Shown in pieces: positions 10,459 through 60,811 of a stretch of DNA of 64,000 nt; within the stretch, counting starts at the first letter, position 1; the number at the start of each line of letters is the position of its first letter. Location of the stretch: the NCBI GenBank assembly GCA_977017645.1, contig OZ360229.1, forward strand, positions 47,926,001-47,990,000. The letters run 5' to 3'. Under the pieces are notes generated by a model. The model did no database searches. It was given only the letters and a program-made list of their open reading frames with translations, and had not been told where the DNA came from. The position numbers were made by a program, and so were the translations under genes. Source of the DNA: Torpedo marmorata. Lineage: Eukaryota.

Positions 10459-11740
10459 ATCAGAATCAGAATCAGAATTTATTGTCATGAACAAGTCATG
10501 AAATTCGGTGTTTTGCGGCAGCATCATAGTGCAATTAACATTCATATTAACCATCTTACGACATTACTACAAATAATTATAAACAATAGTGCACGAAAAG
10601 TAAGGCAGTGTCTTTGGTTCATTGATTATTCAGGAATCTGATGGCAGCGGGGAAGAAGCTGTCCTTGTGCCGTTGAGTGCTCGTCTTTAGGCTCCTGTAC
10701 CTTTTTCCCGATAGAAGCAGAGTGAAGAGGGCATGGCCTGGGTGGTGGGAGTCTTTGAGGATAGAGGCTGCTTTTTTAAGACACCGCCTCATGTAGATGT
10801 CCTCGATGGAGTGAAGTTTGGTGCCTGTGATGTCACAGGCCGAGTTAACAACCCTCTGGACTTTACTCTTGTCCTGGGAGTTGGCGCCTCGATACCAGGC
10901 AGTGATGCAACCAGCCAGAATGCTCTCCACGGTACACCTGTAGAAGTTTACGAGAGTCTTTGGTGACATACCGAATCTCCGCAGACACCTCACAAAGTAT
11001 AGCCGCTGACGAGCATTCTTTGTGATTGCATCGACATGGATGCTCCAGGACAGATCCTCGGAGATGTTGACACCCAGGAATTTGAAGTTCTTGACCCTCT
11101 CCACGACTGAGCCATCAATGAGGACTGGGTCGTGTTCCCCTGACTTCCTCCTGAAGTCCACAATCATCTCCTTGGTTTTGCTGACATTGAGCTCAAGGTT
11201 GTACGCTTCCTCATTGCCGTTTGTGATTCTGCCGACAACTGTGGTGTCATCGGCAAACTTGTAGATGGCATTGGAATTGTGGTTGGCCCCACAGTCATGG
11301 GTGTATAACGAGTAGAGCAGTGGACTAAGCACTCATCCTTGGGGTGCGCCTGTGTTGATAATCAGTGAGGAGGAGATGTTGTTTCCAATTCGTACTGACT
11401 GTGGTCTTCCGATGAGAAAGTCAAGGATCCAGTTGCAGAGGGGGGTACTGAGGCCTAGAGTTTGTAGCTTCTTGACCAGCACTGAGGGAATAATGGTATT
11501 GAAGGCCGAGCTGTAGTCGATGAAGAGCAGCTGTATGTATGAATTGCTGTTTTCGAGGTGATCCAGAGCTGAGTGGAGAGCCAGCGATATTGCATCTGCT
11601 GTGGAGCGATTGTGACGATAGGTGAATTGCAGTGGGTCCAGATCTTTGCTTAGGTACGTGTTAATTCTGGCCATGACCAGCCTCTCAAAGCATTTCATCA
11701 CAGTAGAAGTTAGTGCTACTGGGCGGTAGTCGTTGAGGCA
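10459..11740 (-). mobile_element. Rex1/Babar LINE with (TCTGAT)n tail, nested in the 3' end of another Rex1
   Basis: ORFs 11333-11776 and 10619-11332 carry [24 protein letters not shown]; frameshift and small internal deletion near 11200. Confidence 0.92.
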
Positions 11741-13114
11741 TTGTGCCAAGTAAAATACAAAGCCAATGAAATACAATTAGCATCCAACCAGAAGTTAAAA
11801 AATAGTGATATATACAAATTACTACGTGCAAATCAAAACAAGCACATTCAGCAAGCAAACAATTATAAAAGTACTGACAGTACAATGTGAGTGCAGTACC
11901 ACTCAGCACTGTGATTTAAGGTTCAGCAGGTCACAGCGTCAGGCAAAAAGCTCTTCTTGAGCCTGCTGGTTCGAGAGCGAAGGCTCCTGTGGCGCCTACC
12001 GGATGGAGGAAGAGTAAAAAGTCCATAGTTAGGGTAAGATGCATCCTTGATGATGCTCTTCGCTCTGCCCAGACAGCGTTCCTGATAGATGCTCTCAATG
12101 GTGGGCAAATGGATGCCAATAATCCACTGGACAGTTTTCACCACCCGCAGAAGTGCTTTCCGGTCCGATATAAGACAATTGCCATACCACACTGAGATGC
12201 CATAGGTAAGTATGCTCTCAATGGTACAGCAGTAAAAATCCATCAATATCCTGGGACAGAGGTGTACTTTCTTCATGCTCCGCAGAAAATAAAGGCGCTG
12301 TTGCACCTTTTTGATCAGAATAGAGGAGTTCAGGGACCAGGTGAGATCATCGGAAATGTGGACACCAAGGAATTTAAAGCTTGATACACGTTCAACCACA
12401 ACTCCATAGATGTAAATAGGGACATGAGTGTAGCTTCCAGCACGCCTGAAGTCCACAATGATCTCCTTGGTCTTCTGAGTGTTAAGTGCCAAATTGTTGT
12501 CGGCACACCATGCGGACAGGTGCTGAACCTCGTCCTTATAGGCCGTCTCATCATCCCCTCTGATCAGGCCAACCACTGTGGTGTCATCTGCGAACTTGAT
12601 TATGGAATTAGAACCATATACAGGAACGCAGTCATAGGTGAAAAGGGAATACAGGAGAGGGCTCAGCACACAGTCCTGGGGCATGCCGGTGCTCAAGGTG
12701 AGAATGGAAGAGAAAAGATTGTCTAACTTAACAGATTGGGGTCTGTTCATCAGAAAGTCCAAGGTCCAATTACAGAGGGATGAACTGATACCAAGCTGGC
12801 AAAGTTTGGCGATCAGTTTGGAGGGAATCACAGTATTGAATGCCGAACTGAAGTCAATAAACAGCATTCTGACATAAGAGTTGGAGCTCTCCAAGTGGGT
12901 CAAGGCAGAGTGAAGTGCCGTGGAAATGGCATCCTCAGTCGACCTGTTGATACGATAGGCAAATTGATGAGAGTCCAGGGTGATGGGCAAATAGGATTTC
13001 AAATGTGATAAAACCAGTCTCTCAAAGCACTTTGCAATGATGGGGGTGAGTGCAACTGGATAGAAGTCATTCAGACTCGTGGCGGTGGGACGCTTCGGCA
13101 CTGGCACGATGGTG
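11741..13114 (-). mobile_element. Rex1/Babar LINE with (TCTAA)n tail; its terminal tail is displaced to 10425-10458
   Basis: Uninterrupted 394-aa RT ORF 11923-13107 (FADDT); 3'UTR homologous to 32079-32304. Confidence 0.93.
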
Positions 13115-14029
13115 TCAATCTAGCACATATTTTAACGTTATTTTCCAAAATCCCGTAAGACACTTAGACTCAACATCTGACTTGGCAGCATAATTAAGTC
13201 TGAGAATTTCCCATCATATGGTAAGCATGCAAATCAAGGTGTTTTTTCTGTAAGAAAATGTGAATAATACTGCAGGACATGTTGCAGGAATGTTCCCTCT
13301 CAGCTTTACCTGTGACCATCAAACCACTGACTGTGATATAATGTTTTCAGCCTTCCACTGATTTCACCCTACAATTATGTGTAGATCATTCCTGTTGTAT
13401 GCTATTTGAAATATAGCAAAACTGATCACTTCCTGATATTATTGCTATTAAAAACAGTTATGTTGCATATTACACTAGCAGAAATTGCATGTTTAATCTT
13501 TTGTGTCAATCCAACAGCAAAGTTCATGGCTTCTATTAGACACTAACCCCTTCCAGGAGGTATAGCATCAATAACAGAGAAGCTTTGAAGACAACTGCTG
13601 CAGGGACATTTTGGCTTATTGAAAGAATATGGCTGGCAACAACTCAAAGCATTGGCAGTCTTCAGTCGAGCAGATCCATTGCATGATTTATGAAGCAAAT
13701 GTCCGTAGTGAAATTTGCTCCATAAAATGTAATCAGTGATTGGCTAAAAACATGAGACATCAAGATGAAGAGATAAAGCTGTGGCTGCTTGAGTTTGACA
13801 GAAGAGGTACATATCATGATTTCTGCTTTTTAAGACTGAGTAGAAAAATAAGATGGAAAAGCTTTTGAGTAATTGTTTCCCTATTTGTGAAGTTTGATGG
13901 GATTCAGCACAAAACCATGTTTACACCTTAACTTCAAATACAATAGGGGAATACGATGAATTCAGTACATAATGTTGATAAGTCAAGAAAACTTACTCTG
14001 GAAAACACCCTTGATCACAGGCATGTTGT

Positions 14030-17374: not shown

Positions 17375-18220
17375 TTCAAGATTCAAGATTCAATTTATTG
17401 TCACAGCAATAAGACAGTGTCATATACCACAAAATTTCTTTTTGCCTGCTGCAAGGCAGACAGATTTGCCATCGGCAGAAATTGCCTAAGCGCCTCTAAC
17501 ATTCCTTACAGTCAGAGAAAGAGAAGCAAAAGAGAGTCCCCCCAGAGTCACCGAGTGTCCATAGATTCGCCTCCAGCGCTTCCGCAGCCACACAAAGTCC
17601 AGTCCAAACGATCGGCATCCCGAGCTCCAGATCCGAACCTCCAACACGGTCAGGTTGCCCTCGGCACCCCCTCACATCCCGGTTCCGATACCTGGTACTC
17701 CTCCAGCCAGTTCGAGCCAACCTCCAGCAGTCCGCAGCCCATCGTGAGTCCCCCGACAGCAGTCTCCAGCAGCCCACAGCCTCCGCGGGTTCCTCGCCTC
17801 GAGTCGCTAGCAGCCCACCGCATGCACTGGTCCTTCAGCCTCAGAGCCCCTCACCGGTCCGCCGCTGTGCTCACCGTCCCGTGGGTCGTCTCCTCCGCTT
17901 CTCCTTCTCAGACGGGGGTGATCTTCCCGTCCACTGGTGCCCTGCTCCGGTCCCCTGCTTCCCCGGAGTCTGCAGCCCCTCGTGGCTGCTGCCGATTAAT
18001 AGGCGCTGCCATCTTGGGAGCAGACCCCGCGGTCGCGGGATCTCAAATAAAACCACTATCAGCTCCTTTAACGGGCCGTTCAAAGCCCGTGCGGAACCGA
18101 CGGCCGTCGACTGGGTGGCTGGACCCCGCGGGAGCGCTGTATCTCCGCTCCCACGCTCCTCGCGGGTCCGCACCAGCGGCAGCGCTGCCTCTACAGCGGC
18201 TCCGGCAGCGCCGTCATCTT
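17375..18220 (-). mobile_element. Apparently full-length GC-rich non-autonomous retroelement with Rex1-type tail
   Basis: Colinear with 34507-35355 end to end, same 5' start; TGACAATAAA plus (TCTTGAA)n tail. Confidence 0.85.
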
Positions 18221-29029: not shown

Positions 29030-29605
29030 TGTCAACATTGGGTCATTGTACGCATCTCGAGGAAATGGTTGAAACCATGCAGAGAAGTATGGATGTGAGA
29101 GCTGGTCATGGAGATGGATCAGAATGAGGGGTGTGATAAACAGAGGGGATACCATACTGTGAAAATATTTCTGAAGGGTAGAATGAGATTGTCTATGATA
29201 GCAGTTGAACAAAGGACAAGGAAATAACCCAAGCATAATCTGCTGAAGGAACTCAATGGGCCGAGCAGCATCAGTGGGAGAACAAGAATGGCCAATGTTG
29301 CCAGCCAGAACCCTTCATCAGTGCTGAGAGTATGGAGGAGAGAGAACTGGTGTAATGAAGTCAAGATAGGAGTAGTAGGCATGCTTCACCTCACCCTGGT
29401 CCACCAATCCCTCACTGGCCCTGGCCCTCACCTTACCACCCTCATGGCACCAGCTCTCTCCCCTCCACCCTCTCAGTCTTGATGAAGTCTCTGGCCCACA
29501 ACATTGACCATTTTTTTTCTCCCACTGATGCTGCTTGACCCACTGAGTTCCTCCGGCAGAGTGTGTTTGGTTTCAGATTCCAGCATCTGCAGTCTCCTGT
29601 GTGTC
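29030..29605. mobile_element. Penelope-derived inverted-arm element
   Basis: GGAACTCAATGGGCCGAGCAGCATCAGTGGGAG arm is inverted against CTCCCACTGATGCTGCTTGACCCACTGAGTTCC; degenerate hammerhead-like cores in both arms. Confidence 0.6.
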
Positions 29606-30885: not shown

Positions 30886-31326
30886 AGGTTTATTTTCAAA
30901 GGAATTGGTGTGGAATTTTATTACTTGCAAGTTAGTGCCTTGTTGTTTCATAATTGAAGTAACCTTCTGAAAACTTGTGGGTCCATGGGATCGAGTACTT
31001 GCATTTATCCATTCATTTGGAAATCACCAAATGGAGGCAAAACACCCAGAGATCACCTCGAATTGGATCTAGCACTCACCAGATTGAAATTTATCAGGTA
31101 AAACTCTGCCCAGTGGCACCACCTCCCAGCTTCCCTCCAAACACTGATCAAAAACACAAAGCTGCCCATAGACAGCAGTGCAAAAGCAACTGAGATGGAA
31201 AACTTAAATTATCATGCCCTTTAAGAACTGCAAACAAAAAAATAATAGCTTTATATCTGAGCAAAACAATATTTGTCCAATTTGAGCTCAGTGTTACAGT
31301 TTGGAGTCATTCTTGGGTTATAATTT

Positions 31327-32304
31327 TGTATTCCCTTTTTACCTCCGACTGCGTTCCTGTACATAGTACGAACTCTATAATCAAGTTCGCAGATGACACC
31401 ACGGTGGTTGGCCTGATCAGAGGGGGCGATGAAACGGCCTATAGGGATGAGGTTCAGCACCTGGCCTTGTGGTGTGCCGATAATAACCTGACACTTAATA
31501 CTCAGAAGACCAAGGAGATCGTTGTGGACTTCAGGCGTGCTGGAAGCCACACTCACGTCCCTATTTACATCCATGGAGTTGTGGTGGAACGTGTGTCAAG
31601 CTTTAAATTTCTTGGCGTCCATATTTCCGAAGATCTTACTTGGTCCTTGAATTCTTCAATGCTGATTAAAAAGGCACAACAGCGTCTTTACTTCCTGCGA
31701 AGCATGAGGAAGGTACACCTCTGTCCCAGGATATTGCTGGATTTCTATAGATGCACCATTGAGAGTGTACTAACATATGGCATCTCGGCGTGGTATGGTA
31801 ACTGCCTAGTACAGGACCGCAAGGTACTCCAGCGGGTGGTGAAAACTGCCCAGCGGATTATTGGCATGCAGTTGCCTACCATCGAGAACATCTATAGAGA
31901 ACGGTGTCTGGGCAGGGTGAGGAACATCATTAAGGATGCATCACACCCAAATCACGGACTTTTTACTCTTCTCCCATCAGGCAGACGCTACAGGAGCCTT
32001 CGCTCGCGTACCAGCAGGCTGAAGAAGAGTTTCTTTCATGAGGATGTGAGCCTGATGAACACTGAATCACAGCGCTGAGTGGTACTGCACTCACATTGTA
32101 ATATCAGTACTTTTATAATAGTTTGTTTGTTGAATAGGTTGTTGTTTTGTTGAATAGGTTGTTGTTGGTTTTAATTGCACATGTTTTACTGTGATGTATA
32201 TAGCACTATTTTTTAACTTCTGGTTGGATGCTAGTTGTATCTCATTGGCTTGTTTTGAACTGGTACAATGACAATAAAGTGTATCTAATCTAATCTAATC
32301 TAAT
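31327..32304 (+). mobile_element. Rex1/Babar LINE ((TCTAA)n family), 5'-truncated
   Basis: 250-aa ORF with KFADDT, near-identical to the C-terminal part of ORF 11923-13107. Confidence 0.93.
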
Positions 32305-34506: not shown

Positions 34507-35355
34507 ATCAGTGATGGCAGCGCTGCCGGAGCCGCTGTAGCGGCAGCGCTGCTGCTGGTGCGGACCCGCGGGGAGCATGGGAGCGGAGATGCAACGCTCC
34601 AGCGGGGTCCAGCCACCACGTCGACTGCCATTGGTTCCGCACGGGCTTTGAACGGCCTGTTAAAGGAGCCAATGGTGGTTTTATTTAAGATCCCGCGACC
34701 ACGGGGTCTGCGCCCAAGATGGCAGCGCCTTTTAACCAGCAGCAGCCACAAGGGGCTGCAGATTCCGGGGAAGCGGAGGACTGGAGCAGGGCACCAGAGG
34801 TCGGGAAGATCACCCCCCGTCTGAGAAGGAGAAGTGGAGGAGACGACTCACGGGACGGTGACCACGGCGGCGGACCGGTGAGGGGCTCTGAGGCTGAAGG
34901 ATCAGTGCATGCGGCGGGCTGCTGGTGACTCGAGGCGAGGAACCCGCGGAGGCTGTGGGCTGCTGGAGACTGCTGTCGGAGGACTCACGCCGGGCTGCGG
35001 ACTGCTGGAGGCTGGCTCGAACTGGCTGGAGGAGTACCAGATATCGGAACCGGGATGCGAGGGGTTGCTGAGGGCAACCTGACCGTGTCGGAGGTTCGGA
35101 TCTGGAGCTCGGGTTGCCGATCGTTTGGACTGGACTCTGTGTGGCTGCGGAAACGCTGGAGGTGAATCTATGGACACTCGGTGACTCTGGGGGGACTCAC
35201 TTTTGCTTCTCTTTTTCTGACTGTAAGGAATGTTAGAGGCGCTCAGGCAATTTCTGCCGGTGGCGAATCTGTCTGCCTTGCGGCAGGCAAAAAGAAATTT
35301 CATGGAATATGATACTGACTTATTACTATGACAATAAATTGAATCTTGAATCTTG
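34507..35355 (+). mobile_element. Apparently full-length GC-rich non-autonomous retroelement with Rex1-type tail
   Basis: Colinear with 17375-18220; GATGGCAGCGC start; internal CAAGATGGCAGC; TATGACAATAAATTGAATCTTGAATCTTGAA end. Confidence 0.85.
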
Positions 35356-36047
35356 AACTGTGTGATACCGTCATGCAGCATTGATACTTCAAGAGAACTG
35401 AATGTAAATCTGAATGATCCTTTTTCAAGTCCAATTATATATTTCATAGATATTCACATCACACTTGTATTTCATTGGATAGTAACCGACTGCACTTCCT
35501 ACATTAAAAACCAGTGACTCATTTCCTGGTCTTAAAAGCACTTTAAGGAATGCTGAGCTTTTGAGAGATTCCATCGAAATGAAAGCTTGCTCTGGGTAGA
35601 CTTACAATGTGTTTCTGAATTTATGTCAGTTGGACTGATTTTTTTGCCAATTCAGCTCATTGTAGCTCTTCATTGGAATAGCCTGGAATATTAGAGAGTT
35701 TATTGAGAAAGGTAATAGTTTTAGAACTCCCTGAACAATATCATGCAGCCAGCAATCTTGGTATTTAACTTTTGGTTTTCTGATTACTTTAACTCTCTTC
35801 AGGATGGGACCATTCCTGGGAATTTTGGGCCAGTGCACATGGTCAAATCTCTTTGATGTTATTGTTCATGGGATGTTGTAATGCAAAAGGGTTCATTGAT
35901 TGGAAAGTGGCAAGGAAAATATGATCCAAAGCTGAAGAGTTGCACCATAGGAACACTCAAAAAGGTACCAATTCATTGAAATAATGGATAGTGGTCACCA
36001 ATTGCAAAGAAGTGTAATTAATTCCATTTTGTGTTTTAATAGATTTT

Positions 36048-38621: not shown

Positions 38622-38850
38622 AGACACACGGGCAATGGTAGATGCTGGAATCTGAAGCCGAATACAACCTGCTGCTTAATCCACTGAGTTCCACCAGCAT
38701 CAATGGGAGAAAAAGAATGGTCAACGTTGAGCCGAATCCTTGATGAAAGGTTTTGGCTTGAAACGTAGACCAGAAACCCTTTATCGAAGTTTCGGCTCAA
38801 TGTTGACCACTCTTTTCCTCCCATTGATGCTGTTTGACCAGCAGATTGTG
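38622..38850. mobile_element. Penelope-derived fold-back element
   Basis: Imperfect inverted arms of ~60 bp over 38695-38832; hammerhead-like core at the apex. Confidence 0.7.
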
Positions 38851-51019: not shown

Positions 51020-51350
51020 ATGAAAGGAGACACAAAGAGAAACCGCAGGGAAGGCGTCCTTCGGCGCAACGAGTCTGTATTGACTTCACGGACACCTATC
51101 CGATATTAACTCTGCCTTTTTTATTCTCTCCACATTCTCATCAGCTCTCATCAGATTGCGTACGCTCTGGACAATTATATTGGCCAATTAACCTACCAAC
51201 CTGCATGTCTTTGGGATGTAGGAGGAAAACCAATGCATGATTGGGACAACGTGCAAACTCCCTGCAGACAGCATGCAAGGTCAGGACTGAACCCAAGTCT
51301 TTGGCATTGTGAGGCAGTGACTCTACAAGCTGTGCTACTGTGCTGTCCCA
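51020..51350 (-). mobile_element. V-SINE, older subfamily
   Basis: GTGCAAACTCCCTGCAGACAGCA, GACTGAACCCAAGTC (B-box on minus), GCTACTGTGCTGTCC. Confidence 0.75.
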
Positions 51351-51885
51351 AGATGTCCAAACACCTGTGTTTTTGATGCTTTCTCCTCCATTGGTAGACT
51401 GTTTCATAATCATTTCCAGGATGATCAAACATCAGTGATTCAAGGAAATCAGGTATTTTTGAATTTTTCTCAACATAAAAATCCTTGATAATTTCACACT
51501 TCATCACGAGATGTTAATGTTTTAAAAAGCACATTGACAAAAACTGAGATAATGTAATTCTCCTCGAGAAATTATTTCAAAATTTCAGAGGTATCACCAA
51601 CATAAAACCATGCTGGATGAAGCCATCTATACTTTAAACAGCATGCTAACTGGTTGTTGAACACACACACGATTATGCTGATCCTGTGCCTAATGAAGCA
51701 AAATTAAGCGATGCTCAAGTTCATCCATGTAGGAGTGGTTCCTTTGAGCACCTTGAAAAAATGAAGGCGTGGAGATCAGAGATGAGAACTGTCAGACAGT
51801 GCTTGTGGAGTGGGAGGGGAAGGTGAGGGAAACATTCATCAAAGAACGCTGCCCACGAGGTTTAAGAAACTTCTTTATTGGTTGA

Positions 51886-52367
51886 CAGTAAATCCCCTGT
51901 TATCTTGAATTCAAGCAATCGGCAAAAAAAGAGGAAAATAAATTTTAAAAATAGATAAATAAATAAATAAAAAGTTAGAATGAATAAGAATAAATAACAA
52001 ATTAAATAAAAGTTTAAAATTGTAAAAGTAAATGCTCTCTGAATTAACACATAAATCTTTGGTGAAGATGGTAGCAAATATTCAGCTGTTTGAATAAAGT
52101 TGTGTTTGAATAATATGGCGTCTCCCAGGATGAAGAGCTGGTTGATGCCGCTCACCGTTGGGCTGACTCTCTTGAAGTGTCTCCTTATCCCTACTTAGTA
52201 AGAGTCTTTATCTTTATTAGTATATTATTTTTTTTGTCTTTTAAACTGTTTATTCTAATGCAGGTGTATTAGTTAGGCATTGTAAGAGTAAGTCTTAAGC
52301 AACTGTAAAATACACTTATACAGCATCTACCAATCCCCGTAGGTGCTAGACACCAGTGGTTTTACTG
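51886..52367. mobile_element. pogo/Tigger-type non-autonomous DNA transposon carrying an ALG8 exon-1 copy
   Basis: Imperfect TIRs CAGTAAATCCCCTGTTATC and (reverse complement) CAGTAAAACCACTGGTGTC, 15/19 match; TA at the right flank, GA at the left. Confidence 0.75.
52115..52197 (+). pseudogene. ALG8: Isolated copy of ALG8 (alpha-1,3-glucosyltransferase) first coding exon
   Basis: Encodes [27 protein letters not shown](Y), versus recalled human ALG8 ...[20 protein letters not shown]. Ends TA|GTAAGA, a phase-2 donor in the Tyr codon as in vertebrate ALG8 exon 1. Next exon (HSTDFEVHRNW) not seen in the remaining 11.8 kb. Confidence 0.85.
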
Positions 52368-53448
52368 TACAAGCAAATAATCTGTACCCCACCATCCCCA
52401 CCCACTTTCCACAACTATGAATGAACATGGAGGACTCAGGAAATATACCTCAACCAAACTTGCCCATGACAAGGTTCAGAAAAAAAAATTGGGAATCCAG
52501 AGATTAACTCAGAGTTGATTATTTAATGAAACCAATAGATTAGAGGGTGAATTAACTTAAATTCACCAAGAATTTACCTCACTTTTACCCATTCCAAATC
52601 TCCCAAATTGGAATTAAATCATTAAGAAGTCCATTTTGCCATGAGACTCTCATGAAGATGTAAAAAAAACTGCTCATGTTGACATCATAATTTGCACCCT
52701 GAAATATAAATCAGTCATATTTTCATGTAGTAACTTCAGGAAAACAATTGTTTATTCTTTTTCATAAACATACAGGCTCATTAGGTTTCTGGCAGATTCT
52801 GATCCACTTTTGACTTTACATTATTGGGTTATGAAAGGTGTAATAAATTCAACCCTGAATATTTAATTAAATCCTGGGGAGAGGAAAACAGGATGCAGGT
52901 CGAAAGTAGAGAGGCAGATAGAACAGATACTTTGTCACACAAATTAAAACAATAATCATGGAATCAAATAAATAAGTTGCAATAAGAAACAAGCAATACA
53001 CAGGGTGGAGATATCAGGAAGGGCTGCGTGGATTCCCCCAGTCACAAGTAGTTTGTGTCTGTGTGGTCTTTGTACTTAGCAGCTTCAATCTGAGAAAAAT
53101 AAAATCGATCCCATGGCCTATTAAGCTAATAACCAACAATTTTAATTGCAGCTAGCAGGAAATATTACCAAAGCTAATTGTCCAATACCAGAAAACACAA
53201 CTGAACAAGGATCCCCTCATTACAGGTCATAATTCCAGCAGTTTAATTGGAGTCTTCCTCCAGGGAAGTCCCTCAGGATGATTTACTTTCACTCGGCATC
53301 TCTGGATTCTGAGGTGATTATGGATAGTGCAGATTCTTCTGTAGATGGAGCAGGAGGTAAATGGTAGGTCAAGCAAAGAGCTTTCTGAAGAGATGCAATC
53401 CACGCATCATTTATCCAGGCATCTGTATGCTCCCGGGATATGAACTCA

Positions 53449-53816
53449 AGGCCTTGCAGGGGGGAGAACCCCCAAGCCTTGCAGGGGGAAAGCCTTGCAG
53501 GGGGGGAGAACCCCCAAGCCTTTCAGTGGGGGAGAGAATCCCCAATCCTTTCAGGGGGGGGAGAGAACCCCCAAACCTTTCAAGGGGGGTGGGGGGAGAG
53601 AACCCCCAAGCCTTGCAGGGAGGGGGGAGAACACCCAAGCCTTGCGGTGGGGGGGGAGAACCCCCAAGCCTTGCGGGGAGAGAACCCCCAAGCCTTTCAG
53701 GGAGGGGGGAGAACACCCAAGCCTTGCTGTGGGGGGGAGGGAGAACCCCCAAGCCTTGCGGGGAGAGAACCCCCAAGCCTTTCAGGGAGAGAACCCCCAA
53801 GCCTTGCAGGGGAGAA
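53449..53816. repeat. G/C-run minisatellite, ~14 units of roughly 17-35 bp
   Basis: Core GGGAGAGAACCCCCAAGCCTT(G/T)C(A/G)G with variable G runs. Confidence 0.95.
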
Positions 53817-55711
53817 CTCAATGAAATCTCAACAGGAGTCACTGAAACCTCAAGAGGCAACAAATCAATGAGTTTAATATGATAAATAATTTAAAAAGTA
53901 CCAACAGCTTCTTTACGTGTCCTGCATATAAAGAAAGGACACTGTTTTTCGGGTGGATCATGCCATTTGGGTCCTCGGCCAGGAACCACTACCCACAGAC
54001 CTTGGGATGAATGAGGATAAACTGCTACATTGCCTCTGGAGTCAGAGTCATGCAGCAAGGAACAGGCATTTCAGCACAACTCGTTGACCAATCAGCAACG
54101 TGGCTGGGTCGTGACAGGACTAAAAGTGCTCCAGTAATTAGGTCCATTCCCAGAAGCATTCCTGACAGACTCTGACGATCGCACAAGTCATCACTGATTT
54201 TTCGAAGTTTTTTAAATGACATTCCAGGTCCATTTAAAAACAAAAGTGAACTGAATAATTAAAAATAGTATGGAATTTAAATATCCTTAAAACCCAAATT
54301 AACATCGAGCTAAATTAAATTTTGCAAAGCAACTTGCATCCCTCTTTTCTTGCAATACATCTGACCTGCAGTTAGCATGAATTAGTGAGGCAATTCTTTG
54401 GGTCAGGTCAGACTTGCCATAGGAGATGAACGTCAACTCTCCAGTGTAATATTGGAGAAATCCAGAAGGATTAGGCCCTGCTAATCATCTCCATGGAGAG
54501 AGTGAACTGGTAGCTTGAGGTAAACAAGCTGGCCACTACTTTCCCAATAAGAATTAGAGGGCGATGAATGAGGACTTTGCGAGTGATGCCCACTTCTCAT
54601 AATGAAAGAAAAGTTGGATGTGACGTCTAGGTTCAATTCTGGCTTCAAACAATCAGTCCCAGAGGTGAACTGCCTGACAATTTCAATGGAAATACATATT
54701 CATACTTCATTCTCACAGCTATTTTGAGACTTTGGCTACTTCAGTTACGAGGAAATTCCTTTGTGGCAGTGCGCTGTCCAATATATCTGCAAGAACAAGC
54801 CATTTATCTTCACTGCTTAAATAATCAGCACCATTTCATTTCAAATCATTCATTATTGGCAGTGCCGAGTTCCAGACACAAATGTGCTGGAGAAACTCAG
54901 CAGATCATGCAGCATCCATAGAAAGTTGAAAGTAACCAACATTTCAGGCCTGAGCTCTGCTGGCCTTCTCCAGAACTTTTGTGTTCTGCACTCGAACCCA
55001 GTACAGAGTTCCAATCTGACACAGGACAAGATTGTACTGAATGCTCAATATTTGGTGTTCATCTAATTGGTCCTGGTAAAATGAGCAGGAACAGGAAAGC
55101 AGCAACGACATTGCAGCTACCCTCATAGCAGGCAGCAGTTAACAGCAACATAAAGTGGAAATTAACCCAATTTTTTGAAAGCAATCATCCCAATTTTGCA
55201 TTTTATTGTTGGAGTCATCTAAATGGGCATTAACAAGAAATGGAACACTAGTTCAGCACACCAAGTAACGGTGAACTCCATTTTCGAGGCACGAGACTCA
55301 GCAAGCACAGAAAAACAAGAATTGCAGGCATCTCAAAATTTAGTAAATTATTGCAAATCAGATTGTATTTGTTAAAAACAAATCATGTTGAAAATTAGGG
55401 AATTTTTAAAACTAAGCTTATACTGTACTCAACTTCCAAATGTGGCAGATCATGGTGATTACAATTTAATAATCAAACTGAAAGGGTAGTGCATGATAAA
55501 ACATTAATCTTCAGTTTACAGCTAATTTTAAATGACAGCTTCTTCAAGGCATAGTCTATAATTCAGTAACTGATTAGAAAAAGATGTAATGCACAGAACA
55601 TGTACCAGTCTCAATGGTATAAACCGTCAATCTGATCTGTAAAACCAAACATGAAAATATTCATGGCAAAAGACTATGTCTTTACACCCAAAAGAACTTG
55701 GACAGGTAATG

Positions 55712-58594: not shown

Positions 58595-59930
58595 GGACTT
58601 CCTCGAGTCAGCGGATGGGGCGGTGTTCAAGGACTCAGCTGAGAATCTGAACGATTACACCAGTGCTGTCCTGATCATCCCATCATGTTCGTATCTGAGG
58701 ATGACGTGCGTGCTGCCTTCAGGAGAGTGAAACCGAGGAAAGCATCAGACCGGATGGAGTACCTGGCTGAGTATTAAATATCTGTGCTGACCAACTTACC
58801 AATGTATTCACGGATATCTTCAATGTCTCACTCCAGCAGGGCGTGGTACTCATCTGTTTCAAACAGGCATCAATCATACCAGAGCCAAAGAAGAGTGTAG
58901 TAACCTGCCTTAATGACTATCGACCAGTAGCACTTACATAAACAGTGATGAAGTGTTTTGAAAGGCTGGTGTTGAAGCATATTAGCTCCTGCCTGAGCAG
59001 TGACATAGATACATTCCAGCTCGCCTATCGTAGTAACAGGTCTGAGTCAGCATACAGGAGGGAGATTGAAAACTTAGCTGAATGGTGCACCAACAACAAT
59101 CTTGCACTCAATGTCACCAAAATTAAGGAGCTGATTGATGACTTCAGAAAGGGTAAGCCAGAGGTACACAATCCAGTGATCATTGGGGGATCAAAGGTGG
59201 AGAGGGTGAGCAAATTTAAGTTCTTGGAAGTCACAATATCAGAGGATATTTCCTGGACCCAACACACTAATGGCATCATGAAGAAAGCACGTCAGCTCCT
59301 CTACTTCCTCAGGAGTTTGCGGAGGTTTGGTATGACACCAGAAACCCTGGCTAATTTTTACAGATGTGTGGTGCAAAGTGTGCTGACCGGCTACATCACA
59401 GTCTGGTATGGGGACACCAATACCCCTGAGCGTAAAGCCCTCCAAAAGGTAGTGGACAAGGCCCAGGTCATCACAAGCAAAACCCTCCCCACTATCGAGA
59501 ACATCTACAGGGAACACTGCTGATGGAGAGCAGCAGCAATCATCAAGAATCCATACCACCCAACACACGCTCTGTTCTCGCTGCTGCCATCAGGAAAGAG
59601 GTATAGGTGCCACAAGGCTCACACCACTAGGTTCAGGAACAGCTTCTACCTCTCCACCATCAGTCTCCTGAACAACAAACTCAATCATTACCTCATTTTA
59701 GGACACTTACTTGTGCACTGTATTGATTTTAAAAAAAATTCTCTCTGTATTACACAGTTTGTTTGTTTACATTCGTTATCTGTTTACAGTTCTTTATATG
59801 TATATGCTGCGTACAGGTTTTTTGCACTACCAATAAGTGGAAATTCTGCCTCACCCGCAGGAAAAAGAACCTCAGGGTTGTATATGATGTCATGTATGTA
59901 CTCTGACAATAAATCTGAAATCTGAATCTG
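58595..59930 (+). mobile_element. Rex1/Babar LINE ((TCTGAAA)n family) with internal deletions
   Basis: [21 protein letters not shown]; RT core deleted near 59043; homologous to 44646-45365. Confidence 0.9.
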
Positions 59931-60098: not shown

Positions 60099-60630
60099 CC
60101 GTATACGTCGGCATATTAGGTGACTGAGCGTACAAGGCGACCCCCAGAATTTCCACTAAAAATGTAGGTTTTGAACTATATTCGCTGTATAAGACTACCC
60201 CAAGTCTGGCACTTACTGCTGAGAGTTCAGTGCCCCAATAGTCCTTTAACAACCAAGTTCATGTTTCCGATGTTGCTTAATAGATAACTGTTTTTTACGT
60301 TGTATTACGTAGCAATGGAAATTAGTAATTTTAATGTCAAGATCTGCTGGTAACTTCTGCAATATTTTAGTTTTCTGCCTTGGTACGAGACCATTTCTTT
60401 TCATAAAACGACTACACCATGAAGCAGTGGCTTTGAAGTCTTTGCTGTGCTCTTGGTTTTCTTTAGCCCACTCAAGAGCAAAAATGCATCTTTTATTTCT
60501 TGATACAATGTATTCATTTTGACGCAGCTCACAGCCCATGTCTGCTACGTGCTTCTCTAGAATCGGCCAGTGAACAGTGCCTCCTCTCATTGCACATAAG
60601 TGAACACTTGAGCCTTTCCAAGAAACGCGG
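60099..60630 (-). mobile_element. pogo-family (POGK-like) DNA transposon fragment with CENP-B-type HTH
   Basis: TA|CCGTATACGTCGG terminus; ORF 60246-60590 has WPILEKHV...FKATASWCSRFMKRNGL..RQKTKI.QKLPAD. Confidence 0.85.
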
Positions 60631-60811
60631 AGGGCGGCACGATTGGCGTAGCAGTTAGCGCAACACTGTTACCGCGCCAGCGATCAGGGCTCGGGTTCAA
60701 ATCCCGCGCTGTCTGTAAGGAGTTGGTACATTCTCCCCGTGTCTGCGTGGGTTTTCCCCGGGGTCTCCAGTTTCCTCCCACCATTCGAAACATACCGGGG
60801 GTTATAGGTTA

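What the first reader, a model, noticed from the sequence alone, without database searches (positions are those of the whole stretch)
51886..52367. pogo/Tigger-type MITE that appears to have captured ALG8 exon 1 (Pack-TIR-like)
Seen in the sequence: a 482-bp unit bounded by imperfect CAGTAAA-type TIRs, with TA on the right flank. It contains an uninterrupted ATG-initiated 83-nt exon (52115-52197; A at -3, G at +4) encoding [27 protein letters not shown](Y), followed by a GTAAGA donor. From recalled knowledge, this matches the ALG8 N-terminus and its phase-2 first intron. The upstream DNA is AT-rich rather than a CpG-island promoter. No exon 2 and no usual neighbour such as KCTD21 was seen in the window. 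Inference: a DNA transposon picked up genomic exon plus intron-flank DNA from a housekeeping glycosylation gene. It may have dispersed it as a portable start codon, hydrophobic segment and splice donor, or as a source of ALG8-homologous small or antisense RNA.
Basis: partly seen in the sequence, partly recalled or inferred. Interest (0 to 1): 0.85.

Follow-up and report, generated by a model that had tools for sequence, protein, structure and literature searches.

The report
Transposon carrying an ALG8 first exon
A short jumping-DNA element appears to have picked up the first coding exon of the essential sugar-transfer gene ALG8, a known kind of gene-fragment capture that is probably inert here but would be notable if the element has many copies.

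Summary
51886-52367 has pogo-type ends (CAGTA...TACTG, 16 of 20 matched; 2 such pairs in 300 simulated windows), with TA on the right flank only (left is GA). The 83-nt segment 52115-52197 matches human ALG8 exon 1: 19 of 21 reference bases taken from a published variant table, both mismatches synonymous, ending at the phase-2 intron (0.01 expected). Sequence databases did not recognise the short peptide. No second copy, parent exon, exon 2 or neighbouring gene was found in the window. Human intron 1 (about 12.06 kb) is longer than the 11.8 kb left, so the real-gene reading is not excluded. Best reading (0.8): a Pack-TIR, about 110-130 bp of alg8 copied at DNA level into a non-autonomous pogo element. 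It is probably silent here: no CpG island, seven AATAAA signals upstream, no good acceptor, two stops if unspliced. Copy number, parent locus and transcription could not be tested. Pack-TIRs are a described class (370 cases); I found no report of this one. Interest depends on whether it is multicopy.

The parts
51884..51885 (.). Left flank dinucleotide GA where TA is expected (mutated or absent target-site duplication)
51886..51905 (+). Left terminal inverted repeat, CAGTA-type
   Evidence: 16 of 20 match to right end; same end motif as pogoR and Tigger TIRs in PMC7386202 Table S1
51906..52114 (+). Left arm, A-rich; seven AATAAA hexamers; inferred to be mostly transposon interior
   Evidence: whole left arm 51886-52114 is 23% GC with 1 CpG; AATAAA at 51937, 51958, 51962, 51966, 51989, 52005, 52093; transposon origin inferred
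52087..52113 (+). 11-bp exact direct repeat (52087-52097 and 52103-52113) ending one base before the ATG; possible junction scar
   Evidence: 14 such short-spaced repeats in the window, 7 of them in one minisatellite, so weak
52115..52197 (+). Copy of the ALG8 first coding exon: 27 codons plus 2 nt, ending in a hydrophobic stretch
   Evidence: 19 of 21 anchor bases, single match in window, 0.01 expected; anchors; hydropathy 1.5 over the last 19 residues
52198..52203 (+). 5' splice donor GTAAGA at the position of ALG8 intron 1 (phase 2)
   Evidence: human c.96-2A>G places the intron after c.95
52204..52225 (+). Probable remnant of alg8 intron 1; the right breakpoint is not mapped
   Evidence: inference; composition shifts to T-rich near 52221
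52226..52347 (+). Right arm, inferred transposon interior
   Evidence: no other copy in window; boundary inferred
52348..52367 (-). Right terminal inverted repeat
52368..52369 (.). TA target dinucleotide

Best explanation
This is a Pack-TIR-like element: a non-autonomous pogo-superfamily transposon that holds a DNA-level copy of the alg8 first coding exon and the first bases of intron 1 (about 110-130 bp). Shown: the exon's identity, its donor, the pogo-type ends, the right-hand TA, the lack of gene context. Inferred: a break inside the element was repaired by template switching onto the 5' end of alg8 (gap filling or fork switching, as proposed in PMC8277862), and the functional alg8 lies elsewhere. 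Inferred: this copy is most likely silent, since it has no promoter-like DNA, upstream sense transcripts would meet seven poly(A) hexamers, there is no good acceptor before the ATG, and the unspliced frame stops after 27 codons. Whether it was moved again after capture is open; a parent that is not nearby fits that slightly better.
For: ALG8 match 19 of 21, 0.01 expected. Intron-side GTAAG follows the exon, so it is not a retrocopy. Chance of an inverted pair bracketing the exon 0.002 under the loose rule; CAGTA-ended 2 in 300 windows. TIR type matches published pogoR and Tigger TIRs with TA duplications. CpG observed/expected 0.43 and 34% GC in the 500 bp upstream. 0 of 368 non-repeat open frames of 45 aa or more carry a host-gene Pfam domain; the one hit is a Tc5 transposase domain. 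Cargo size is in the published range (median 224 bp) and exonic cargo is over-represented among Pack-TIRs.
Against: No parent copy, no second copy and no family consensus could be examined (within the window; outside found nothing, in collections poorly suited to the question). Left flank is GA. A shared subterminal motif between the arms was not significant (199 of 372 windows scored as well). The exon is intact (ATG, frame, GT) and both differences from human are synonymous, as a working exon would show. Human intron 1 is about 12,057 bp against 11,803 bp of window left. Most single-copy Pack-TIRs (56.9%) lie within 15 kb of the parent, and no parent lies in the 52 kb upstream or 11.8 kb downstream.
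Confidence: 0.8

Rival explanations
1. This is the functional alg8 first coding exon, and exon 2 lies beyond the window. The inverted ends are chance, or unrelated transposon pieces.
For: Intact ATG, frame and donor; only synonymous differences at tested anchors; human intron 1 longer than the remaining window; single copy in window; a small CpG-rich patch (9 CpG in 150 nt) about 1 kb upstream at 51031-51180.
Against: Bracketing by chance 0.002 or less; 23% GC left arm with seven AATAAA directly before the ATG; no CpG island at the exon although the window has them elsewhere; no host gene domain upstream. That housekeeping first exons usually sit in CpG islands is general knowledge, not tested for this lineage.
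Confidence: 0.09
2. A captured copy that was later adopted as the working or an alternative first exon of alg8 or of another downstream gene.
For: Cassette has ATG in good context, a hydrophobic segment and a donor; 30% or more of Pack-TIRs examined in three species are transcribed as chimeras.
Against: No promoter-like DNA; best pyrimidine content before any AG within 200 nt upstream is 0.7, at a site 200 nt away and upstream of all seven AATAAA; no downstream host exon detected in 124 open frames.
Confidence: 0.05
3. A dispersed duplicate of alg8 exon 1 made without a transposon (for example captured at a repaired break), with an accidental inverted repeat around it.
For: TIR match is imperfect, left TA missing; arms have no relatives in the window; loose-rule pairs occur 0.35 times per window.
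Against: The ends carry the specific CAGTA motif and a TA flank typical of pogo elements; 0 of 300 simulated windows gave that combination.
Confidence: 0.06

Closest known systems
Pack-TIRs of animals (Tan et al. 2021, PMC8277862; abstract and sections 7-10, 14 read, plus search passages)
   Same: TIR element of the Tc1/mariner-pogo group with a short internal host fragment copied at DNA level; their Pack-Tigger1 example also has one TA mutated.
   Different: Parent copy and consensus not shown here. Only 4 (1.4%) of their cases were multicopy. Main text has no mention of ALG8, shark or cartilaginous fish; its supplements were not seen.
pogo superfamily, pogoR and Tigger families (PMC7386202 passages and Table S1 rows; PMC9219625 passages)
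   Same: Short TIR (20-21 bp) with CAGTA end motif, TA target.
   Different: No transposase, so the family cannot be assigned; no published representative contained the two arm words searched (0 hits each).
HelibatN217.1 and other bat Helitrons with captured 5' gene ends (PMC4224331, passages)
   Same: Capture of a first exon with part of the first intron of a housekeeping-type gene (TMBIM4).
   Different: Rolling-circle elements without TIRs; those captures include 5' UTR or promoter, whereas here the GC-rich part starts at the ATG.
Pack-MULEs of plants (as cited in PMC8277862 and PMC4224331)
   Same: Non-autonomous TIR element with a gene fragment of a few hundred bases or less.
   Different: Mutator superfamily, long TIRs and 9-10 bp duplications; far more often multicopy (36% in rice).

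Membership tests
ALG8 exon 1 | Sequence match to reference ALG8 c.58-c.88 in register with the exon end | tested here: met
   19 of 21 bases; Gly20, Thr22, Lys25, Leu28 equal window Gly16, Thr18, Lys21, Leu24. Human Thr8, Gly9, Asn12 do not match the window at that offset and were left out of the pattern as the variable N-terminus.
ALG8 exon 1 | Phase-2 intron after human c.95 | tested here: met
   c.96-2A>G splice variant; window exon is 83 nt, 12 nt shorter, same phase
ALG8 exon 1 | Pfam Alg6_Alg8 or database homology of the peptide | tested here: inconclusive
   No hit for the 27-34 aa peptide in Pfam, PDB, representatives or Atlas; too short for the main protein search
Functional alg8 gene | Downstream exons on the same strand | tested here: inconclusive
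   0 of 124 open frames hit Alg6_Alg8, no recalled family motif downstream, but only 11.8 kb is available and Pfam also missed exon 1
pogo superfamily | Short TIRs (40 bp or less) with CAGTA-type ends | tested here: met
pogo superfamily | TA target-site duplication on both sides | tested here: inconclusive
   TA on the right, GA on the left; one substitution would explain it
Tigger family | Transposase phylogeny and DDD triad | not testable with these tools
   No transposase inside the 482 bp; the end motif is shared by pogoR and Tigger rows
MITE | Short, non-coding, TIR-bounded | tested here: met
   482 bp, no transposase domain
MITE | High genomic copy number | not testable with these tools
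Pack-TIR (Tan et al. criteria) | Both flanks belong to one TIR consensus and reach its termini | tested here: inconclusive
   Matching termini present; no consensus available; subterminal motif not significant
Pack-TIR (Tan et al. criteria) | Internal non-transposon sequence of 100-5000 bp | tested here: inconclusive
   At least 89 bp (exon plus donor) shown; 110-130 bp inferred from composition
Pack-TIR (Tan et al. criteria) | Parental copy at 90% or more identity elsewhere, not flanked by the element | not testable with these tools
   None in the window; source genome not searchable
Pack-TIR (Tan et al. criteria) | Not a retroduplicate | tested here: met
   The exon is followed by a GT donor at the intron position, not by exon 2 sequence

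The most novel reading that the evidence does not exclude
The ALG8 cassette is part of the consensus of an abundant non-autonomous pogo family in this lineage. The start codon, first membrane segment and splice donor of an essential glycosylation gene would then have been spread to hundreds or thousands of sites by cut-and-paste transposition. That would far exceed the few-copy multicopy Pack-TIRs described in vertebrates. It would set up a testable conflict: small RNAs against the element could hit alg8 mRNA, or the host-gene cargo could shelter the element from silencing, and some copies could donate N-terminal exons.
Probability: 0.3. Interest if true: 0.68.

Novelty: new member of a known kind. 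Interest (0 to 1): 0.42.

Why it matters
As a single inert copy it is one more Pack-TIR, in a lineage that looks like a cartilaginous fish (my recall of the repeat types, not tested), a group not named in the main text of the animal Pack-TIR survey. As a high-copy family it would be a rare vertebrate case of a cut-and-paste element amplifying a coding first exon of an essential gene. It would then be a natural system for asking whether gene capture causes small-RNA conflict or new N-termini, and a likely source of false alg8 gene models. TcMar elements are reported as expanded in skates (3.28%) and rays (2.30%) against sharks (0.14%) (PMC12361510, passages), which would supply the opportunity if the source is a batoid.

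Tried and rejected
Peptide identification by databases failed: Pfam gave only DUF5989 at E 0.05, PDB 0, representatives 0, Atlas no usable hit; the main protein search would not take the peptide. Searches with the overlapping antisense 110-aa and alternative-frame 52-aa open frames, aimed at spurious proteins from other copies, found nothing; these negatives carry little weight. Two arm motifs in prokaryotic genome contigs, aimed at host contamination: 0 and 0; plasmids no match. Rfam 0. Literature searches for the peptide gave only unrelated text; searches gave no sequence; four proteomics or variant supplements lacked the N-terminus (with 12 of 24 files unsearched, 35, 37); PMC10454741 passages did not help. 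Subterminal repeat shared by the arms: rejected as not significant. Outer inverted repeat 51809-51836/52379-52406: G-rich against C-rich, treated as chance. Long hairpin: plus strand z -2.83, minus strand z -0.65, driven by A-rich against T-rich arms, so not taken as evidence for a small-RNA precursor. The transposase fragment at 60249-60668 has different ends and is not taken as the partner.

Full report
Observation. The 482-bp unit at 51886-52367 is as described. Its ends match at 16 of 20 positions, the outer seven perfectly; the right flank is TA and the left GA. The segment 52115-52197 is 83 nt, starts with ATG (A at -3, G at +4), encodes [27 protein letters not shown] plus two bases and is followed by GTAAGA; without splicing it meets TAG TAA. 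It is 53% GC between arms of 23% and 32% GC.

Is the inverted repeat more than chance? Under a loose rule (CAG start, at least 16 of 20, 100-1000 bp apart) simulated windows give 0.35-0.375 pairs each, and 6 of 400 random starts reach 17 of 22, so the repeat alone is modest. The chance that such a pair brackets a fixed 83-nt exon is 0.002. CAGTA-ended pairs occurred 2 times in 300 simulated windows, and with a TA flank 0 times; those rules were set after seeing the element. Table S1 of the pogo survey (PMC7386202, four rows seen) lists CAGTA/CAGTA end motifs with TA duplications, and TIRs beginning with the same ten bases as the right end (a pogoR row) and the left end (a Tigger row). Neither of two internal arm words occurred in that table. 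A subterminal motif that seemed shared by the arms was not significant (199 of 372). From memory, with no call behind it, arms of this kind resemble an abundant short repeat in ray assemblies; this is a lead only.

Is the exon ALG8? Databases could not say: Pfam, PDB, the representative library and the Atlas gave nothing usable for 27-34 residues. I tested it through papers instead. The splice variant c.96-2A>G (PMC4504351, passages) puts human intron 1 after c.95, in phase 2; the window exon is 12 nt shorter and in the same phase. The gnomAD table in the supplement of PMC13618962 (ALG8 sheet; all 9 rows between c.59 and c.87 seen) fixes 19 reference bases between c.58 and c.88; adding the GT gives 21. 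The window matches 19 of 21 at 52160-52199, the only match with up to 3 mismatches, against 0.01 expected (1 of 100 shuffles). Both mismatches are synonymous third positions. Gly20, Thr22, Lys25 and Leu28 correspond to window residues 16, 18, 21 and 24. Further upstream, human Thr8, Gly9 and Asn12 do not match; these rows were not in the pattern. The identification is secure for the 3' half of the exon.

Context. About 30% of the window (18,930 bp in 43 segments) is repeated within itself, with many reverse-transcriptase-like frames (one confirmed as RVT_1). The element, its arms and the exon occur once. Of 124 plus-strand open frames of 26 aa or more downstream of the donor, 0 hit Alg6_Alg8, and none of ten recalled family motifs occurs there. 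Of 368 open frames of 45 aa or more elsewhere, taken after dropping frames mostly covered by within-window repeats (number dropped not printed), 0 hit a host-gene domain and 1 hit a Tc5 transposase domain. Shorter exons would be missed, and Pfam missed exon 1 itself. The table coordinates give human intron 1 as about 12,057 bp (c.95 at 77850540, c.96 at 77838482, derived), more than the 11,803 bp left in the window, so missing exon 2 does not settle the matter. The 500 bp upstream of the ATG are 34% GC with CpG observed/expected 0.43; CpG-island-like stretches exist elsewhere in the window but not here. A 150-nt patch with 9 CpG about 1 kb upstream is unexplained.

How it most likely arose. 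The cargo includes the intron side of the donor, so it was copied from DNA and not from mRNA (shown). Tan et al. (PMC8277862; sections 7-10 and 14 read) report 370 Pack-TIRs in 100 animal genomes, median cargo 224 bp, 13.4% exonic. They attribute most to gap filling at breaks inside old elements and the 4 multicopy cases to fork switching followed by transposition. The same repair route is inferred here: a break in a non-autonomous pogo element was filled from the 5' end of alg8. An exact 11-bp direct repeat ends one base before the ATG and may be a junction scar, though 14 such repeats occur in the window. In that survey 56.9% of Pack-TIRs lie within 15 kb of the parent and multicopy ones are always distant; no parent lies within 52 kb upstream or 11.8 kb downstream here, which leans slightly towards later movement.

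What it does. Most likely nothing at this site (inferred). Seven AATAAA hexamers lie in the 229 bp before the ATG, against a window mean of 1.4 per kb; no AG between them and the ATG has a pyrimidine tract above 0.55. The donor is 5 of 9 consensus, a score reached by 1410 of 3342 GT sites. The unspliced frame stops after 27 codons. A plus-strand transcript folds somewhat better than shuffles (z -2.83), the minus strand does not (z -0.65); the pairing is between A-rich and T-rich arms, and Rfam finds nothing. There is no evidence here for a portable exon or for small RNA.

Rivals. The real-gene reading (0.09) rests on the intact exon and the long human intron. It needs both a 0.002-level coincidence and a housekeeping start codon directly behind a 23% GC arm with no CpG island. 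Adoption of the captured exon as a working first exon (0.05) and a transposon-free duplicate (0.06) cannot be excluded. Attempts to find other copies outside the window failed in collections poorly suited to the task.

Comparison and novelty. It works like a Pack-TIR and meets the features that could be tested (pogo-type ends, not a retrocopy); parent copy, consensus and copy number could not be tested. Family assignment below pogo is not possible without a transposase. The closest cargo analogue is the bat Helitron carrying the TMBIM4 first exon and part of intron 1 (PMC4224331, passages). Searches showed no report of an ALG8-carrying element; I saw only the listings (3 of 3, 20 of 67, 15 of 591, 20 of 51), and none of the 15 listed contains ALG8. 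The main text of Tan et al. has no ALG8, shark or cartilaginous; its supplementary case list was not seen, nor were Dfam or Repbase available. That the source is a cartilaginous fish is my recall from repeat types and was not tested. PMC9219625 (passages) reports Tigger in 5 chondrichthyan species with 18-23 bp TIRs and TA duplications.

Verdict. A real feature and very probably a captured ALG8 exon in a pogo-type non-autonomous element: a new member of a known kind, interest 0.42. If the cassette proves to be part of a high-copy family (probability about 0.3, resting partly on untested recall), it would deserve about 0.68.

Noticed in passing
window 60099-60668 (minus strand): Decayed pogo-type transposase fragment: Tc5 HTH domain (E 2e-5); nearest proteins are 50% identical and carry PF09607, PF03221 and PF03184. 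Its nearby end begins TACCGTA, unlike the element's CAGTA, so probably a different pogo family (Passer-like by recall).
   Followed up: partly
window 51031-51180: Small CpG-rich patch (9 CpG in 150 nt) with no relative in the window, about 1 kb upstream of the ATG, running into what looks like a SINE (recall).
   Followed up: partly
window 53432-53817: GC-rich minisatellite with units of about 24-35 bp, roughly 11 copies.
   Followed up: no
window 29266-29533 and 38695-38832: Short inverted-repeat units with near-perfect 20-bp arms (19 of 20) of one shared type, different from the element studied.
   Followed up: no
window 17375-18218 and 34513-35359: Two copies of a GC- and CpG-rich repeat that form the window's main CpG-island-like stretches, with long open frames and no Pfam hit.
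   Followed up: partly
window 11926-13119 (minus strand) and related copies such as 10619-11776, 31194-32078, 58942-59523: Many LINE reverse-transcriptase fragments; the Pfam model ALKBH8_N hits them, which suggests that model matches retroelement sequence.
   Followed up: partly
window 52062-52072: An upstream ATG at 52068 in a GAAGATGG context, followed at once by GTA GCA; it resembles a decayed housekeeping-type start motif (recall) and could be 5' UTR cargo or transposon sequence.
   Followed up: no
window 51809-51836 and 52379-52406: A second, outer inverted repeat (28 nt, 79%) around the element, G-rich against C-rich, probably chance.
   Followed up: partly
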